Shown here: one piece after another, positions 6,396 through 27,632 of the stretch
Layout of the letters: every line of letters starts with the position of its first letter
Numbering within the stretch: position 1 is the stretch's first letter
The notes under the pieces: generated by a model
The model's input: only the letters and a program-made list of their open reading frames with translations
Databases searched by the model: none
Told to the model about the DNA's origin: nothing
Program-made: the position numbers and the translations under genes
From: a phage
DNA: 51,691 nucleotides
Reading direction: 5' to 3' (one strand)
Sequence record: OZ346160.1

Positions 6396-6414
6396 TTTAA
6401 CAAAAAGTGCTATC
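6396..6414 (+). promoter_or_regulatory. conserved motif, inverted orientation, embedded in sigma70-like promoter upstream of major capsid gene
   Basis: TTTAACAAAAAGTGCTAT lies between TTGACG (6388..6393) and TATCAT (6410..6415), 16-nt spacer. Confidence 0.45.
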
Positions 6415-10106: not shown

Positions 10107-10145
10107 TTCCTGTAAAATCAATCTATCAAATAAATCAATTCCACT

Positions 10146-10164
10146 TTTAACAAAAAGTGCTATA
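10146..10164 (+). promoter_or_regulatory. conserved motif, inverted orientation, upstream of tail chaperone/tape measure operon
   Basis: TTTTAACAAAAAGTGCTAT immediately followed by AAGGAG RBS and ATG 10178. Confidence 0.45.
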
Positions 10165-16561: not shown

Positions 16562-16586
16562 AACCAGCATTGCGCTGGTTTTTTTG
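16562..16586 (+). terminator. rho-independent terminator after HNH gene
   Basis: AACCAGC-attgc-GCTGGTT followed by T7. Confidence 0.55.
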
Positions 16587-16598
16587 TGCCTTTATAAT
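16570..16598 (+). promoter_or_regulatory. putative sigma70 promoter for J-like gene
   Basis: TTGCGC - 17 nt - TATAAT (16593..16598), overlapping the HNH terminator hairpin. Confidence 0.3.
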
Positions 16599-16634
16599 GT
16601 GCAAACCAAGAAACAGCACAAAGGGTTAAAAGTC

Positions 16635-19600
16635 ATGGCTAAATATATGATAAGCGGCAGTAAGGGCGGAAGCAAAAAGCCATACGTGCCAAAAGAGATG
16701 GAAGATAACCTGATCTCGATAAACAAGATTAAAGTTTTGCTGGCTGTATCTGATGGCGAGTGCGATCCAGATTTCACGTTGCGCGATCTTTATCTTGATG
16801 ATGTTCCGGTTATTGCCAGCGATGGCACTGTTAACTATGAGGGTGTAACGGCTGAATATAGACCGGGCACACAGACGCAAGATTACATCCAGGGGTTTAC
16901 TGACACATCAAGCGAGGTGACAGTTTCGCGAGATATTACAATAGACAATCCCTATATTATCTCTGTAACAAACAAAAATCTTTCTGCAATCAGAATCAAG
17001 ATTCTGATGCCAACTGGCATAAAGCAGGAGGATAACGGCGATCTGGTAGGTGTTAGTGTCACATATGCCGTTGATATGGCGGTTGATGGCGAATCTTACA
17101 AAGAAGTTTTGCTGGACACCATTAACGGTAAAACGAGAACAGGTTACGACCGCAGTCGCCGTATCGACTTGCCGAAGTTCAATGATCGCGTATTGTTCCG
17201 CGTTCGACGAGTTACGCCAGACAGCACATCTTCAAAGGTGACTGATAAAATCAAACTGCAAAGTTACGCTGAGGTTGTGGATGCAAAATTCCGTTATCCT
17301 CTGACTGGCCTTGTATTTGTAGAATTTGACAGCGAATTGTTTCCTACACAAATCCCTAACATTTCTATAAAAAAGAAATGGAAGATTATTAATGTGCCAA
17401 GCAACTATGATCCAATATCAAGAGAATATCATGGGTCATGGGATGGGACTTTTAAGAAAGCGTGGTCAAATAATCCTGCATGGGTTCTTTATGATCTGGT
17501 GACGAATCAGCGTTATGGACTTGACCAGCGAGAGTTAGGAATACAGATCGACAAGTGGAGCTTATACGAGGCAGGCGTTTACTGTGATCAGAAAGTTCCA
17601 GACGGTAAGGGCGGTACAGAGCCTCGCTACCTATGCGATGTGGTGATTCAGAATCAAGTTGAGGCTTATCAGCTAATCCGTGACATTTGCTCAATCTTTC
17701 GCGGAATGAGCTTTTGGAATGGTGAGAGCTTATCAATCGTGATTGATAAGCCGCGCGATCCATCATACGTGTTTACTAATGAAAACGTCATCAACGGTGA
17801 TTTTCAGTACACAACCGCAAGCGAAAAAAGCATGTACACGCAGTGTAACGTGACGTTTGACGACGAACAAAACATGTATCAGCAGGACGTAGAGGGGGTT
17901 TTTGATACTGAGGCGGCATTACGATTTGGATACAATCCAACAAGCATTACAGCGATCGGGTGTACACGCAGGAGCGAAGCGAATCGTCGCGGTCGGTGGG
18001 TTTTGAAAACAAACCTTAGAAGCACTACTGTAAACTTTGCTACCGGACTAGAGGGGATGATTCCATCAATAGGTGATGTGATTGCTATCGCTGATAATTT
18101 TCATAGCAGCAACCTAACGTTAAACCTATCGGGCCGAGTGATGGAAGTTTCAGGATTGCAGGTTTTCGTTCCGTTTAAGGTTGATGCTCGTCCTGGTGAT
18201 TTTATTATCATCAACAAGCCGGACGGCAAGCCAGTTAAGCGCACGATTTCAAAGGTGAGCGCAGACGGAAAAACCATTGAGTTAAATATTGGCTTTGGTT
18301 TTGATGTTAAGCCTGATACTGTTTTTGCGATTGACCGTACTGACCTTGCGTTGCAGCAATACGTTGTGACAACTATCAGCAAGGGTGATGATGAAAACGA
18401 GTTTACCTTTTCAATCACGGCTGTGGAGTACGATCCGAACAAATACGACGAGATTGATTACGGCGTAAACATTGATGACAGGCCAACTTCAATTGTTCAG
18501 CCTGACGTGATGGTAGCGCCTGAGAACGTGCAGATCTCATCTTATTCTCGCGTTGTGCAGGGTGTCAGCGTTGAAACTATGGTTGTGTCGTGGGAAAAAG
18601 TGCCTTATGCGTCACTGTATGAAATGCAATGGCGAAAGGGTGATGGTAACTGGCTGAATACGCCGCAGACCGCTAACAAAGAGATAGAGGTAGAAGGAAT
18701 TTATTCAGGCAACTACCAAGTAAGGGTGAGATCCGTTTCTGCAAGCGGTAACACTTCCCCGTGGTCAAAGATTGCAACCGCAACCCTGACAGGTAAAGTT
18801 GGCGAGCCAGGAGCGCCGATTAATCTTACAGCTTCTGATAATGAAGTTTTTGGCATTCGTGTCAAATGGGGTATGCCGGAAGGGTCAGGAGATACGGCTT
18901 ACATCGAGCTTCACCAATCGCCAGATGGAACGGTGGAAAACTCAAGTTTGCTTACGCTGATCCCGTATCCTCAATATGAGTATTGGCATGGCACGTTACC
19001 AGCTGGGCAAGTTGTATGGTATAGAATCCGTAGCGTTGACAGGATCGGCAATGTTTCCGGCTGGACTGACTTTGTTCGCGGCATGGCGTCAGATGATGTT
19101 GATTCTGTTTTAGGCGACATTCTGGACAAGATTTTTGATACCGAAGCTGGTCAAGAAATCAAAGAGAACGCCATAGACAGCGCCAACAAAATCAAAGACC
19201 AGGCGCAATCAATCATTCAGAACGCTTTGGCAAATGATTCTGATGTTAGAGTTATGAAAAAGGAGAATGGGAAACGGAAAGCTGAATTTAGGCAATCTAT
19301 ACAGATGATTGCTGATGAAACAGAAGCAAGGGTGACAGCGTTAACGCAATTAAAAGCAGAATTTGATGAGGAGATAACTAGCGAAGTAACAAGACTTGAT
19401 CAGGCGATCGCAACAGAATCAGAAACGCGAGCAACAGCTATAGAGGAATTAAAATCACAGATTGGTGATGATATACAGGGGCAGTTAACTAGAGTTGAGG
19501 AAGCGATTGCAAGCGAAACAGAGGCGCGCGTTTCTGCCGATACTGCATTAACGGCAAAGTTTGGTGATCTTGAGTCGGCACTTACTGAAAAACTTGATTC

Positions 19601-20060
19601 ATGGGCTGGCGTTGATGGAGTTGGCGCACAGTACGCAATGAAACTTGGATTGACATACAACGGGCAGAAGTACAGCGCTGGTATGGTGATGCAGCTTTCG
19701 CAGGGTTCATCCGGCCTTATTTCGCAGATTTTGTTTGATGCGAACAGGTTCGCTATCATGACAAGTTCGACTGGAGGGTCGTATACATTGCCTTTTGTGG
19801 TAGAAAATAACCAAGTTTTCATTAACAGTCTGTTAGTGAAAAGCGGATCAATCACAAACGCCATGATCGGTAACTTCATCCAATCAAACAATTACGTTTG
19901 GAATCAAACAGGATGGAGGCTGGATAAAAACGGCACGTTTGAAAATTATGGTTCTACTCCTGGAGAAGGGGCCATGAAAATGACAAACGAAACGATCAGC
20001 GTTAGGGATGTAAACGGAGTTTTGCGTGTTCAGATTGGTAGGCTGACTGGTACGTGGTAA
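16635..20060 (+). CDS. tail tip / host specificity protein (lambda J-like central fibre)
   Basis: 1141 aa from MAKYMISG; size, position after I-like gene, fibronectin III-like segments in middle. Confidence 0.8.
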   Translation: MAKYMISGSKGGSKKPYVPKEMEDNLISINKIKVLLAVSDGECDPDFTLRDLYLDDVPVIASDGTVNYEGVTAEYRPGTQTQDYIQGFTDTSSEVTVSRDITIDNPYIISVTNKNLSAIRIKILMPTGIKQEDNGDLVGVSVTYAVDMAVDGESYKEVLLDTINGKTRTGYDRSRRIDLPKFNDRVLFRVRRVTPDSTSSKVTDKIKLQSYAEVVDAKFRYPLTGLVFVEFDSELFPTQIPNISIKKKWKIINVPSNYDPISREYHGSWDGTFKKAWSNNPAWVLYDLVTNQRYGLDQRELGIQIDKWSLYEAGVYCDQKVPDGKGGTEPRYLCDVVIQNQVEAYQLIRDICSIFRGMSFWNGESLSIVIDKPRDPSYVFTNENVINGDFQYTTASEKSMYTQCNVTFDDEQNMYQQDVEGVFDTEAALRFGYNPTSITAIGCTRRSEANRRGRWVLKTNLRSTTVNFATGLEGMIPSIGDVIAIADNFHSSNLTLNLSGRVMEVSGLQVFVPFKVDARPGDFIIINKPDGKPVKRTISKVSADGKTIELNIGFGFDVKPDTVFAIDRTDLALQQYVVTTISKGDDENEFTFSITAVEYDPNKYDEIDYGVNIDDRPTSIVQPDVMVAPENVQISSYSRVVQGVSVETMVVSWEKVPYASLYEMQWRKGDGNWLNTPQTANKEIEVEGIYSGNYQVRVRSVSASGNTSPWSKIATATLTGKVGEPGAPINLTASDNEVFGIRVKWGMPEGSGDTAYIELHQSPDGTVENSSLLTLIPYPQYEYWHGTLPAGQVVWYRIRSVDRIGNVSGWTDFVRGMASDDVDSVLGDILDKIFDTEAGQEIKENAIDSANKIKDQAQSIIQNALANDSDVRVMKKENGKRKAEFRQSIQMIADETEARVTALTQLKAEFDEEITSEVTRLDQAIATESETRATAIEELKSQIGDDIQGQLTRVEEAIASETEARVSADTALTAKFGDLESALTEKLDSWAGVDGVGAQYAMKLGLTYNGQKYSAGMVMQLSQGSSGLISQILFDANRFAIMTSSTGGSYTLPFVVENNQVFINSLLVKSGSITNAMIGNFIQSNNYVWNQTGWRLDKNGTFENYGSTPGEGAMKMTNETISVRDVNGVLRVQIGRLTGTW

Positions 20061-24355: not shown

Positions 24356-24390
24356 ACAAAAATCCCCGCACAAGCGGGGATTTTTTTATT
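24356..24390. terminator. bidirectional terminator between ssb and tail fibre
   Basis: A-run, TCCCCGC-acaa-GCGGGGA, T7. Confidence 0.65.
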
Positions 24391-26596
24391 CTGTATCTGT
24401 TGGATTGTTGATTAATTTCGCTACCGCTTTTTTTAGATCCTCTATCTCTTTCTCCATTTTCTCAATTTTGTTTCCCATGTAGACCATAGCGCAAGCCATA
24501 TCAGCCATTATAACGTTATTGTCAAGAGCTAGTGTATCATCTGCTTTGTCAACCACAATCTGACGATCCACATATTCTTCACCTTCATCATTAACGCCTA
24601 TAACATCTGCAAAAATGTCCCCTCCAGGTATTAGCTTTACATATTCAGGATCTATTTTTAACAGATCCTGCGCTATCATCCCGAATCGCTGGATGTTGCT
24701 TCCATTGTATTTAAACATTGTCGGCAGCCACTGCATAACGCGATCATAGCTTTCCTTTCCATCTGTATAAATTATATCGTGCTTTAAATCTCTGTCAGAG
24801 TTAGCGGCCTTTTGAAAAATGAAATTTCCACTTGATGACCATGTGGTTATATCGTTTGATACTGGATTAAAATGGAAGTTACAGAAAAAATCATGATCAC
24901 CACGAAGCCTTAACGAGCAAAGAGGCCATGCATTATTACCTTGTGAGATAAGACCCCAAGTTGCACGAATCGGGTATCCACCAGTTGATTGTGTAGCCCA
25001 AGATAACCCAGGACACCAGCCGCCATCATTATTGGTTATAATTTCACCCCAAACAAGAGCATTACCCCAATAATTTGGATCGTCCCACCCCATTTGTTGA
25101 GTTTTTCCGGTGTATTGAGCAGAATGCGTTTTTCCGTCAGGGTAAAACTTGTGCATATAGCTTTGAACACCATGCTTATACAGTTCAATCCCAAAAGACT
25201 CAATTTGGGCAGCACCACCTCTGATCAAACCTGCGATAGCGTAATCATTATACCAGTGGTACTGGCTTAAACCAGTCCATGCGTTTATCTGTGGGTTCAC
25301 AACTGAAAAGAATCGTGACGGATTGTGATCATTTCCGTCAGCATAAAAACCCTCACCAGGAGCTAAAGCTACCTTTTTTGGACCAGTAAAATTACCATTT
25401 ACATCAAACTGATAATACTGTGATAACCCGTTGTGAAACACACCTATTGTATGCTTTCCTACGCCTACTTGAGTTTCAAAATAAGACTGAGAAGATCCAA
25501 TATCCTCACCTTGTGTATTCTTTAGTGTTGAATGGTATATACCTGCGTTTGCAGTAGTTGCATTTTCCGTTTCGTTTTCAACATTAAGACGCAAAAACTT
25601 TGGTGAATGTTTTTCGCCAAGTCCTATATTGTTTCTGATGCCATTTGCGTCAATAGCTCCAGTGCCACCAGAAGAAATAGCTAAAGGAACAGTTTCAAAT
25701 GACCCAGACCCTGATACGTCCCTCTGGAAAACAAGAAGACCATCATCTCTGATAACAAGCCTATATTCTCTATTTCTAGAGTACAAGATAGTATGCACGT
25801 AGTCCTGAAAAAATGAATCAATGCTAAGCGTCCGGCGAGCTTCATCAATGTCAGAAAGATATTTAAGGTTCTGATCCTTATGCACTAGATTTTCAGGATT
25901 TACCTGTTGCGCCCACTGGCGAGCTTCATCACGCGCAGTTTCAGCGCCAGCCTTTGCATTATTTGCCTCAACGGCATGATTGCCAGCAGTATCGCGCGCC
26001 AGTTCAGCCTGATCGCGAGCATCAAAAGCCTCCTGTTTAATAGCTTCCGTTTCTGCAATAGCAGAATCCTTTATCTGTTGCGTTTGAGTTTTGATTGCGT
26101 CAGTATCCGCTTTAATTTGATTTGACTCAGCGACAGCAGAATCCTTTATCTGTTGAGTGTCATTTTTTAATTGTTCAGTGGCTGCGCGATCTGTTGCTAC
26201 TTGTTGCGCAGATTCCTTAGCTTGATTCACCAGATCCTTTAAGCCATCCAAATCAAAATCTTTAAAAAACTCTATTGCTTCTGCAATTTCTGTTTCCTTG
26301 CTCTGGTAATAACGCAAAGTTTCCGCTACATCCTGCGCAAGCCCGTCAACCGTTAACGAGTCATGAAGCAAGATCAGGTAATTTGTCTTCTGGACTACCG
26401 CGCCGCCAGTAGTAATTGCGCGAATGCTTGTATCGCTAATCACTTCTGTGATCACAGCAGCTTGCAAAGGTTGAGTGAGAAAGAAAATGGTTGCACCTGG
26501 GCGAATCAATGTTAATTGCTCGCGCCATTTTGTGTCGTAACCAGTTACATAACCTTGAGCGTCCATAGACGCTTGGCCTTGTCTGTAAATCGCCAT
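24386..26596 (-). CDS. tail fibre protein with C-terminal intramolecular chaperone (S74-like autoproteolytic) domain
   Basis: Start MAIYRQ with AGGAGG RBS; coiled-coil repeats ([10 protein letters not shown] / [10 protein letters not shown]); C-terminal region has Ser/Lys pair in ANSDRDLK followed by about 120 aa. Confidence 0.7.
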
Positions 26597-26611
26597 TTGT
26601 AAAATCCTCCT

Positions 26612-26646
26612 AAATAGCACTTTTTGCTAATGACAATTCAGATAAT
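26612..26646 (+). promoter_or_regulatory. conserved motif copy adjacent to tail fibre start (inverted relative to that gene)
   Basis: AATAGCACTTTTTGCTAATGAC then GATAAT; on - strand the motif abuts AGGAGG RBS of the tail fibre gene. Confidence 0.4.
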
Positions 26647-26661
26647 AGCATTTTCAAATGC

Positions 26662-26688
26662 AAAAAAAAACCCCGCATAAGCGGGGCA
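26662..26688 (-). terminator. rho-independent terminator after primase (- strand)
   Basis: On - strand CCCCGC-ttat-GCGGGG followed by T9. Confidence 0.6.
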
Positions 26689-26702: not shown

Positions 26703-27632
26703 TTATAGTAGTGATTCGGGCTTGTAGAGTTTTCTTTCTACGCCCTGTTTAAAATTATCGTCAACAGGCATCATTATGTCAAGACCTCTTTCCTCTGCCG
26801 CGATTATCACATCACGATCATCTTTCCGGCAGACTACTCGCATTCTTCTTTCTCCTTTATATCTATGCGCAACCATTTCAAGATTTGAAGGAGTAAAGCA
26901 AGCCCACACCTCTTGACCAGTTGATAAATGAACATGCTGGGAATCAACCCAATCAAGGCACAAATAGATCGTCTTATCTGTGCTACCTGTTTTAACAACA
27001 GATCCGCGCGTGTAGTCGCGAGCTAAAAACCAATCCTTTCCATCCTCATCAATGAAAAGCACGTTACACATTTCATCATCAAGCCCGTCATCATGCACCA
27101 AGTGACAAGGTAGCGCGTGAATGTATCGACCATCCTTGACGCCGCAATCATAATGACAACCTTCCGTCGGATATATCCCCTCATAAACGCTTAAAGGTGT
27201 GCGATCGAATTTTAATGTTTTTGCCATCACTTTTTCGCAGCATTCATGACTTGCCTGTTTCCCGAACGAGTAACCAGAAGAACGCGAAGCGCGTTTGTTT
27301 GCTCTGATCCTGTAATCCTGCGGCACTTTTCCGAGGAAGCGACCCAAAATATTGATGGCCTCGCTGTAAGGTTCGCCAGTTAATTTCATTAACCAACCGA
27401 TCCCCGTGTCGTTACCGCATACGTTGCAGATAGCGCCGCCGTCGCCCTCTTCATTTAGCTTATCAGTCCATCTAAAACGATCCTTGCCGCCGCAGTGTGG
27501 GCAAGGCTGATGCTTTTTGTTGAAAACATCGCTATGCAGTCCGCAAATGCTTTGTAGTGCTTCACGCCATAACCCCTTCATATATGGCAAAACATCTTCT
27601 TTCTGATAGGTCATAAAGTTTTCAGTATTCAT
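26703..27632 (-). CDS. DNA primase (zinc-finger type)
   Basis: Start MNTENF with GAGG RBS; Cys4 zinc motif CPHCGG..CNVCG near N-terminus; terminators on both sides; upstream of helicase region. Confidence 0.55.
   Translation of the reverse strand: MNTENFMTYQKEDVLPYMKGLWREALQSICGLHSDVFNKKHQPCPHCGGKDRFRWTDKLNEEGDGGAICNVCGNDTGIGWLMKLTGEPYSEAINILGRFLGKVPQDYRIRANKRASRSSGYSFGKQASHECCEKVMAKTLKFDRTPLSVYEGIYPTEGCHYDCGVKDGRYIHALPCHLVHDDGLDDEMCNVLFIDEDGKDWFLARDYTRGSVVKTGSTDKTIYLCLDWVDSQHVHLSTGQEVWACFTPSNLEMVAHRYKGERRMRVVCRKDDRDVIIAAEERGLDIMMPVDDNFKQGVERKLYKPESLL

What the first reader, a model, noticed from the sequence alone, without database searches (positions are those of the whole stretch)
24386..26596. 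Tail fibre gene with self-cleaving chaperone-like C-terminus lies outside the tail module, on the opposite strand
The 736-aa protein has coiled-coil repeats and a C-terminal segment with a Ser/Lys pair in SDRDLK, matching the catalytic dyad arrangement of intramolecular chaperone (S74) domains. It sits between ssb and primase, flanked by two bidirectional terminators, with the conserved motif at its RBS. Displaced receptor-binding genes are hot spots for host-range switching.
Basis: partly seen in the sequence, partly recalled or inferred. Interest (0 to 1): 0.5.

Follow-up and report, generated by a model that had tools for sequence, protein, structure and literature searches.

The report
T1-type lateral tail fibre gene
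This is the ordinary side tail fibre gene of a T1-like coliphage, with a self-removing folding domain at its end, sitting where every phage of this family keeps it; the gene, its position and its swappable tip have all been described before.

Summary
Window 24386-26596 (- strand) encodes a 736-aa protein with four parts: an N-terminal anchor domain, a heptad alpha-helical shaft, a beta-rich receptor-binding region, and a C-terminal Peptidase_S74 intramolecular-chaperone domain. The S74 Pfam hit scores 32.4 bits against a cut-off of 22. Ser600 and Lys605 have the same +5 spacing as the T5 pb1 dyad Ser1264/Lys1269.

The window is a Drexlerviridae (Warwickvirus) genome. T1 itself and dozens of relatives carry the lateral tail fibre gene at this spot, convergent with ssb and downstream of the primase.

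Published work already covers the main points:
- the locus and its hypervariable distal part;
- the S74 domain;
- the presence of the homologue in virions.

The distal 480 aa are about 78% identical to fibres of T5-like phages and E. coli prophages. This is a typical swapped host-range cassette.

Two corrections to the finding. Only the ssb-side terminator is bidirectional. The "conserved motif at the RBS" is the known 21-nt T1-family repeat, which here lies in inverted orientation inside the leader of the fibre's own extended -10 promoter.

That inversion is conserved across subfamilies and is the only mildly new point.

The parts
24386..26596 (-). Lateral tail fibre gene, 736 aa (81.9 kDa precursor)
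   Evidence: ORF, start codon and SD. PHROG 5481 tail fiber 5e-183. Relatives that are 92-99% identical are annotated as tail fiber protein.
26249..26596 (-). N-terminal anchor domain, aa 1-116, the conserved part that attaches the fibre to the virion
   Evidence: [quoted passage not shown] DNA conservation with FritzSarasin and tonijn resumes at 26249 and 26217.
25901..26248 (-). Alpha-helical heptad shaft (coiled coil), aa 117-232
   Evidence: Single long helix in AF2, pLDDT 70-79. Heptad a/d-type hydrophobic phases. Profile match to the T7 gp17 shaft, 2.4e-6.
26081..26155 (-). 75-nt (25-aa) in-frame duplication within the shaft, absent from MikeNSara. Its placement is ambiguous within the repeat.
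   Evidence: Alignment A1. Self-similarity peak at offset 25.
25607..25684 (-). Conserved fibre 'GGTGA ... NIGLG' motif, aa 305-330, at the junction to the distal cassette
   Evidence: Matches the SU10 tail fibre 7z47. The region 78% identical to the prophage fibre starts at aa 320.
24800..25639 (-). Beta-rich receptor-binding region, aa 320-599. Receptor unknown.
   Evidence: AF2 with alignment gives pLDDT 80-94, all beta. 78% identical to fibres of T5-like phages and E. coli prophages. No solved fold matched.
24389..24799 (-). Peptidase_S74 intramolecular chaperone domain, aa 600-736 (15.6 kDa). Predicted to be cut off between Asn599 and Ser600.
   Evidence: Pfam PF13884, 32.4 bits against cut-off 22. 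Profile hits to 6f45, 8hqz and 7dc3. The T5 pb1 precedent is the Thr1263|Ser1264 cut. Masses.
24782..24799 (-). SDRDLK: Ser600 (nucleophile) and Lys605 (general base)
   Evidence: Same S..K +5 spacing as T5 pb1 Ser1264/Lys1269.
24358..24385 (.). Bidirectional intrinsic terminator shared by the ssb and fibre transcripts
   Evidence: 12-bp stem with A-run and T-run. -20 and -21.2 kcal/mol, z -5.6 and -4.5 on the two strands. T1 has annotated terminators on both strands at the same place.
26670..26687 (-). Intrinsic terminator after the primase gene, - strand only
   Evidence: 7-bp GC stem plus U9 on the - strand. No U-run on the + strand.
26642..26650 (-). Extended -10 promoter-like element, TGcTATTAT, for the fibre gene (inferred)
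   Evidence: Sequence. TGnTAnnAT is conserved at this position, just after the primase terminator, in upstream sequences from diverse Drexlerviridae loci.
26611..26632 (+). Inverted copy of the 21-nt T1-family repeat (TAAATAGCACtttTTGCTAATG), abutting the fibre SD
   Evidence: Inverted GTGCTAT lies 22-30 nt before the ATG in 19 distinct upstream sequences, including T1. The repeat was described for TLS in PMC11447400.

Best explanation
The gene encodes the lateral (side) tail fibre of a T1-like siphovirus.

Assembly. Three chains assemble from the C-terminus. The S74 domain trimerises through its long C-terminal helix and templates folding of the beta-rich receptor-binding region. Once that region is correctly folded, Ser600, activated by Lys605, cuts the Asn599-Ser600 bond. 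The 15.6-kDa chaperone then leaves.

Mature fibre. The 66-kDa mature chain (aa 1-599) is held on the tail by the conserved N-terminal anchor domain. A heptad coiled-coil shaft projects it outward. It makes the first, reversible contact with a surface glycan (O-antigen or LPS). Irreversible binding is done by the separate receptor-binding protein at the gpJ tip.

Gene organisation. The gene is a self-contained transcription unit in the order: primase terminator, extended -10 promoter, leader, CDS, bidirectional terminator. It sits in the recombination/replication region. This is the family's normal layout, and it lets the distal cassette be exchanged without touching the rest of the tail module.

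What is shown and what is inferred. Shown here: domain composition, the conserved dyad, synteny, the mosaic breakpoints and the conserved signals. Inferred from homologues: cleavage, virion location, glycan binding and promoter use.
For: Domains. Pfam S74 lies above its cut-off. PHROG tail-fibre families match. The N-terminal anchor matches solved spikes. The helical shaft is supported.

Dyad. D601 and K605 are invariant and S600 is present in at least 90% of 69 homologues. The mechanism and the cut on the N-terminal side of the Ser are documented for T5 pb1 and K1F (PMC4690869).

AF2 secondary structure of aa 600-736. It shows short helices and strands, a long beta-hairpin (aa 660-684) and a 38-residue C-terminal helix. 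This matches the published description of the pb1 chaperone.

Virion location. The syntenic S74-bearing fibre of T1-like phage SH6 (ORF54) was found in purified virions at 42% coverage (PMC5238451). Sfin-1 CDS61, next to its primase, was found likewise (PMC6714547).

Synteny. It holds in T1, MikeNSara, FritzSarasin, tiwna, tonijn and G29-2, and in about 30 IMG/VR loci with the primase directly upstream and ssb convergent downstream.

Role as a glycan-binding lateral fibre with a hypervariable distal part: PMC8594841.

Cassette exchange. aa 253-729 are 78% identical to a T5-like phage fibre. aa 320-730 are 78% identical to an E. coli prophage fibre. Breakpoints against congeners fall at aa ~116-127, ~253 and ~602.
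Against: - No experiment on this protein exists.
- Neither T5 pb1 nor the endosialidase chaperone was reached by sequence or profile search of the PDB.
- Equivalents of the T5 sensor residues Asp1239 and Arg1250 were not identified.
- The receptor is unknown. Maffei et al. themselves state that glycan binding by Drexlerviridae lateral fibres 'has never been directly demonstrated'.
Confidence: 0.85

Rival explanations
1. The C-terminal S74 domain is retained. It helps trimerisation but does not cut itself off, so the virion carries the full 82-kDa chain.
For: Cleavage was not observed here. The upstream Asp/Arg sensor residues known from T5 pb1 could not be mapped. One homologue in alignment A2 has Cys instead of the Ser.
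Against: Ser600, Asp601 and Lys605 are conserved with canonical spacing. In T5, the retained chaperone blocks receptor binding, so retention would probably inactivate the fibre.
Confidence: 0.07
2. The distal region is an enzyme (a glycan depolymerase, esterase or deacetylase tailspike) rather than a purely binding fibre.
For: Proteins with the same N-terminal anchor in Klebsiella T1-like phages are capsule depolymerases. The fold of aa 320-599 matches nothing solved.
Against: No enzymatic Pfam domain was found and there is no beta-helix. The region is only about 280 aa of antiparallel beta structure. It is shared with L-shaped-fibre-type proteins of T5-like phages.
Confidence: 0.06
3. The gene is a recent displacement or insertion peculiar to this phage, as the word 'displaced' in the finding implies.
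For: It lies 4.3 kb beyond the tail module, on the other strand, bracketed by terminators.
Against: The same position and orientation are found in T1 (Tunavirinae) and in loci whose primase is only 42-60% identical. The position is described as fully syntenic in PMC8594841.
Confidence: 0.02

Closest known systems
Phage T1 tail fibre ST26 (FibB) and the Drexlerviridae lateral tail fibre locus (Maffei et al. 2021, PMC8594841; SH6 ORF54, PMC5238451)
   Same: Same locus, convergent with the gene after erf and downstream of the primase, with bidirectional terminators. Same N-terminal anchor, an S74 C-terminus and a variable middle.
   Different: The distal receptor-binding cassette is a different allele. 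T1 shares only about 70% DNA identity, over a 130-nt N-terminal stretch.
T5 pb1 L-shaped tail fibre and its intramolecular chaperone (PDB 4UW7/4UW8; PMC4690869)
   Same: C-terminal chaperone of about 135 aa, a Ser/Lys dyad spaced +5, and cleavage expected just before the Ser. The role is lateral fibre for O-antigen.
   Different: No detectable sequence match to pb1 itself in PDB searches. Here the shaft is 116 aa, against about 1,000 aa of fibre in pb1. The receptor-binding fold could not be equated with the pb1 'bullet'.
DT57C LtfA (PDB 8hqz) and S16 gp37 (PDB 6f45)
   Same: These are the closest solved S74 domains by profile, at 4.5e-8 and 1.2e-9. The Ser and Lys align.
   Different: Only the chaperone domain is related. 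The rest of those fibres is unrelated.
Klebsiella T1-like phage depolymerases Depo32 (7vyv/7vz3) and 7lzj
   Same: Anchor domain and helical bundle, aa 1-183, E 1e-51.
   Different: Their distal part is a beta-helix capsule depolymerase without S74. In those phage loci, ssb lies upstream on the same strand.
Endosialidase (K1F/K1E) C-terminal intramolecular chaperone and the MYRF ICA domain
   Same: Same Pfam family. MYRF 7dc3 is reached by the domain profile at 0.009.
   Different: The relationship is distant. The cargo there is a triple beta-helix or stalk, not this beta-rich tip.

Membership tests
Peptidase_S74 / intramolecular chaperone auto-processing domain | Match to the curated family profile above its gathering score | tested here: met
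   PF13884, 32.4 bits against 22, aa 600-654, profile positions 1-58 of 58.
Peptidase_S74 / intramolecular chaperone auto-processing domain | Nucleophilic Ser at the domain start with Lys five residues downstream | tested here: met
   S600 and K605. K605 and D601 are invariant and S600 is present in at least 90% of 69 homologues. The equivalents in T5 pb1 are Ser1264/Lys1269.
Peptidase_S74 / intramolecular chaperone auto-processing domain | Located at the extreme C-terminus, directly after a trimeric beta-structured fibre or spike domain | tested here: met
   aa 600-736 of 736, preceded by an all-beta region with pLDDT 80-94.
Peptidase_S74 / intramolecular chaperone auto-processing domain | Three-dimensional fold: mixed alpha/beta part, long beta-hairpin 'tentacle', central trimeric helix | tested here: inconclusive
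   The order of secondary-structure elements fits. However, pLDDT is 50-70, the model is a monomer, and there was no specific PDB hit. BFVD hits to predicted S74 fibres are significant but mix sequence and structure terms.
Peptidase_S74 / intramolecular chaperone auto-processing domain | Autoproteolytic release after folding | not testable with these tools
   Needs expression of wild type against S600A/K605A, or virion mass spectrometry.
Drexlerviridae lateral tail fibre (T1 ST26 type) | Conserved N-terminal anchor domain | tested here: met
   aa 1-183 match 7lzj/7vyv at 1e-51. 79 IMG/VR loci were recovered using this domain.
Drexlerviridae lateral tail fibre (T1 ST26 type) | Position between the recombination genes (erf, ssb) and the primase | tested here: met
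Drexlerviridae lateral tail fibre (T1 ST26 type) | Component of the virion | not testable with these tools
   Homologues were detected by LC-MS/MS in SH6 and Sfin-1 virions. TLS Gp55 is proposed to be a 78-kDa structural protein.
T5 pb1-type L-shaped fibre tip ('bullet' domain) | Receptor-binding domain homologous to pb1 970-1263 | tested here: not met

The most novel reading that the evidence does not exclude
The 21-nt T1-family repeat is known but has no assigned function. The proposal is that it is the binding site of one dimeric regulator that acts in opposite ways depending on where the site lies.

Copies at promoters. In about 15 copies in this window the dyad TAGCA-N5-TG(C/T)TA lies at a fixed distance from a -10-like hexamer, which starts 38 nt after the ATAGCAC. 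That centres the dyad near -42, the position of a class II activator, and these promoters have no -35 element.

Copies in leaders. At the lateral fibre gene the site is inverted and lies between the fibre's own extended -10 promoter and the SD, at about +5 to +21. Similar inverted copies lie in front of the major capsid gene and the gene after the major tail protein. In that position a bound protein, or the RNA element itself, would delay or tune expression of late structural genes. This would explain how a late virion gene can sit inside the early replication region.
Probability: 0.2. Interest if true: 0.5.

Novelty: already known. Interest (0 to 1): 0.15.

Why it matters
It matters little beyond annotation. 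The result confirms that this phage has the standard two-tier host recognition of T1-like phages: a swappable lateral fibre plus a gpJ-tip receptor-binding protein. It also places the module boundaries at aa ~116, ~253, ~320 and 600, which could guide fibre swapping for host-range engineering. The one thread worth following is regulatory. The conserved, inverted 21-nt repeat in the fibre leader gives a concrete handle on the unanswered question of what that repeat does in T1-like phages.

Tried and rejected
- Single-sequence AF2 of the whole protein gave pLDDT 40.5 and was unusable except for the helical shaft.
- Tandem Repeats Finder found no DNA tandem array in the shaft. The 25-aa duplication appeared only on comparison with MikeNSara.
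- TTTAGGAGGA was tested as 'the conserved motif' and is not enriched: 3 sites against 2.7 expected. The enriched motif is GTGCTATTTA, immediately upstream.
- I considered that the inverted repeat drives a + strand promoter running antisense to the primase. I rejected this because TTGCTA and GATAAT are only 11 nt apart, against 22 nt in the functional-looking copies, and the transcript would run straight into the terminator stem.
- The weak Pfam hits GW (0.015) and Herpes_UL25 (0.42) were dismissed because they fall below their cut-offs.
- The influenza HA2 hits of the S74 profile were dismissed as coiled-coil noise.

Full report
What is there.

Window 24386-26596 (- strand) is a 736-aa ORF that starts at the ATG at 26596, with an AGGAGG Shine-Dalgarno 9 nt upstream. 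The mechanical ORF list extends it to a GTG at 26620. That codon lies upstream of the SD, and all homologues start MA(I/L)YR, so the ATG is the start.

The window as a whole is a T1-like siphovirus genome. The 4-kb region around the gene is 98% identical to Escherichia phage MikeNSara and 96% identical to phage atuna (Drexlerviridae, Tempevirinae, Warwickvirus).

Anatomy of the protein.

1. aa 1-116 (and on to about 183) match the N-terminus of solved spikes of T1-like Klebsiella phages (7lzj, 7vyv, 7vz3; E 1e-51, about 67% identity). The Depo32 paper calls this the conserved N-terminal anchor domain followed by a helical bundle (PMC10581125).

2. aa 117-232 form an Ala/Gln/Asp/Lys/Glu-rich helix. 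It is one continuous helix even in a single-sequence AF2 run. Hydrophobic residues are enriched in two heptad phases three apart. A profile built from homologues matches the coiled-coil shaft of T7 gp17. A 25-aa unit (75 nt, 26081-26155) is duplicated here relative to MikeNSara, so shaft length varies between near-identical phages.

3. aa 305-330 carry the widespread fibre motif GGTGA...NIGLG.

4. aa 320-599 are an all-beta region that AF2, given a 69-sequence alignment, models with pLDDT 80-94. It matches no solved fold.

5. aa 600-736 are a Peptidase_S74 domain. Pfam scores 32.4 bits against a gathering score of 22, and profile position 1 falls on Ser600.

The Ser/Lys pair.

SDRDLK is at aa 600-605. 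In 69 homologues that are 25-92% identical, Asp601 and Lys605 are invariant and Ser600 is present in at least 90%. A profile of the domain alone reaches the S74 domains of S16 gp37 (6f45, 1.2e-9) and DT57C LtfA (8hqz, 4.5e-8), and the eukaryotic MYRF ICA domain (7dc3, 0.009). The Ser and Lys align in each.

For T5 pb1, the crystallographic paper shows cleavage of the Thr1263-Ser1264 bond, with Ser1264 activated by Lys1269. This is the same +5 spacing. The chaperone masks the receptor-binding tip until it is released (PMC4690869). By analogy the cut here falls between Asn599 and Ser600, giving a 66.3-kDa mature chain and a 15.6-kDa released chaperone.

The AF2 secondary structure of aa 600-736 shows short helices and strands, a long beta-hairpin and a 38-residue terminal helix. 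This agrees with the published description of that domain. Confidence is only 50-70, however, and PDB fold searches were uninformative, so the structural test is inconclusive rather than positive. A search of predicted viral structures returned 61 hits at E <= 0.001. Most of the named top hits are phage tail fibres, and several are annotated as carrying S74 or intramolecular-chaperone domains; they include L-shaped fibres of T5-like phages and TLS Gp55.

Position in the genome.

The upstream gene on the same strand is a primase (PF08273; PHROG 510). The downstream convergent gene is an SSB (PHROG 44, with a DDDIPF tail), which is preceded by erf and an exonuclease. The tail module ends with a gpJ-like gene at 16584-20060 on the other strand.

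The position is nonetheless the rule for the family:
- Phage T1 has its tail fibre ST26 on the minus strand between ST27 and primase ST24. Terminators are annotated on both strands at the ST27 side.
- MikeNSara, FritzSarasin, tiwna, tonijn and G29-2 have the same layout.
- Among 79 IMG/VR loci recovered with the anchor domain, those of T1-like genome size either share this layout or, in the Klebsiella-type group, have ssb upstream on the same strand.

Maffei et al. 2021 already describe the lateral tail fibre locus of Drexlerviridae. They report that it is flanked by conserved recombination and primase/helicase genes, and that only the 5' end of the fibre gene is conserved (PMC8594841). Hamdi et al. 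2017 noted the Peptidase_S74 domain in the corresponding fibre of SH6 and detected that protein in virions by LC-MS/MS at 42% coverage (PMC5238451). Sfin-1 gave a similar result (PMC6714547).

Host-range cassette.

- Against FritzSarasin, DNA similarity is lost between about 24790 and 26249, that is codons ~116 to ~602. The proximal break falls exactly at the start of the S74 domain.
- Against tiwna, everything distal to codon ~253 is replaced.
- Against tonijn, codons ~127 to ~728 are replaced.
- aa 253-729 are 78% identical to fibres encoded on 108-118-kb T5-like contigs.
- Similar cassettes sit behind a different N-terminal domain (PF08400) in phages of about 60 kb.
- aa 320-730 are 78% identical to an E. 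coli prophage fibre.

The receptor itself remains unknown. No enzymatic domain was detected.

Signals around the gene.

The hairpin at 24358-24385 has an A-run before it and a T-run after it. It folds at about -20 kcal/mol on both strands, so it can serve both ssb and the fibre. The hairpin at 26670-26687 is followed by nine U only on the minus strand, so it terminates the primase transcript but is not bidirectional.

Directly after it comes TGcTATTAT (26650-26642), an extended -10 element. The arrangement 'terminator, then TGnTAnnAT' recurs in the upstream regions of most of the related loci. The fibre gene therefore looks like an autonomous unit: terminator, promoter, gene, terminator. Promoter use is inferred, not shown.

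The 'conserved motif at the RBS'.

TTTAGGAGGA is not enriched. GTGCTATTTA is: 19 sites with up to 1 mismatch against 3.8 expected. It is the 5' half of the 21-nt repeat aaATAGCACnnnTTGnTAAAA. Kropinski and colleagues described this repeat in TLS, T1, Rtp and Rogue1. They found it oriented with transcription and listed its function as an open question (PMC11447400).

In this window, 15 of 19 full copies have a -10-like hexamer starting exactly 38 nt after the ATAGCAC, and one more has it at 37 nt, with no -35 element. Related loci show the same 37/38-nt spacing. The TAA or TAG inside the repeat often serves as the stop codon of the preceding gene.

The copy at the fibre gene (26611-32) is the exception. 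It is inverted relative to transcription. It lies between the extended -10 element and the SD. It has no properly spaced -10 on its own strand.

This inverted copy, 22-30 nt before the ATG, is present in 19 distinct upstream sequences. These include T1 and loci whose primases are only 42-47% identical to the one here. It is absent from the Klebsiella-type and Hanrivervirus-type loci. Two further inverted copies in the window lie just upstream of the major capsid gene (6397-6413) and of the gene after the major tail protein (10145-10163, also abutting its SD).

The repeat is a dyad (TAGCA-N5-TGCTA). One protein that activates from about -42 and blocks from about +10 would therefore fit, and an RNA-level role in the leader is equally open. 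This is speculation. I did not find it in the papers I read, and I give it a probability of about 0.2.

Verdict.

The feature is the standard, already published lateral tail fibre of T1-like phages, and near-identical proteins are already annotated as tail fibre or Peptidase S74 proteins in public records. Interest is low. The only lead worth keeping is the inverted regulatory repeat in the leader.

Noticed in passing
window-wide, e.g. 30665, 31736, 37832(-), 40528(-), 41833(-), 43547, 44010, 45003, 46428, 47746: The 21-nt T1-family repeat ATAGCAC-N3-TTGnTAAAA is followed at a fixed distance by a -10-like hexamer, which starts 38 nt after the ATAGCAC. There is no -35 element. The spacer is variable and often hairpin-forming, and a conserved CATCRAMAACGA follows the hexamer. 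This looks like a dedicated promoter class whose upstream element is centred near -42. The TAA or TAG inside the repeat is often the stop codon of the preceding gene.
   Followed up: partly
window 6397-6413 and 10145-10163: Two more copies of the repeat are inverted relative to transcription. They lie just upstream of the major capsid gene (ATG 6458) and of the gene after the major tail protein (ATG 10178, where the copy abuts the SD AAGGAG). The fibre leader has the same arrangement.
   Followed up: partly
window 26081-26155: A 75-nt in-frame duplication in the coiled-coil shaft relative to the 98%-identical phage MikeNSara (736 against 711 aa). Homologues of 711, 731 and 736 aa coexist, so shaft length varies in steps.
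   Followed up: yes
window ~24790 (codon ~602): The recombination breakpoint against phage FritzSarasin coincides with the first residues of the S74 domain. The chaperone domain and the receptor-binding region are therefore exchanged as separate modules.
   Followed up: partly
alignment A2 (homologue of the fibre): One homologue reads NCDRDLK, with Cys in place of the nucleophilic Ser. This could be a functional Cys nucleophile, an inactive variant or a sequencing error.
   Followed up: no
window 26754-26782 (- strand): A near-consensus sigma-70 promoter-like site (TTGACA-17-GATAAT, 11 of 12) lies inside the 3' end of the primase gene, upstream of the primase terminator.
   Followed up: no
GenBank MG065643, MG065649, MG065657, MG065680, MG065681: Fourteen unannotated records named 'Campylobacter phage', 49,946 bp in the five listed, match this E. 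coli T1-like locus; the five listed match at 82% identity over 91% of the query. The host label looks doubtful.
   Followed up: no
L006 (G29-2) 849-2674; also slyngel: Hanrivervirus relatives carry four extra small genes between ssb and the fibre gene. They also lack the inverted repeat in the fibre leader.
   Followed up: no
L018-L050 (IMG/VR, Klebsiella-type loci): In these relatives the anchor-domain protein has no S74 domain and is 750-1100 aa long, presumably a depolymerase. ssb lies upstream on the same strand, and the primase lies 3 kb further up. This is a different local arrangement of the same region.
   Followed up: partly
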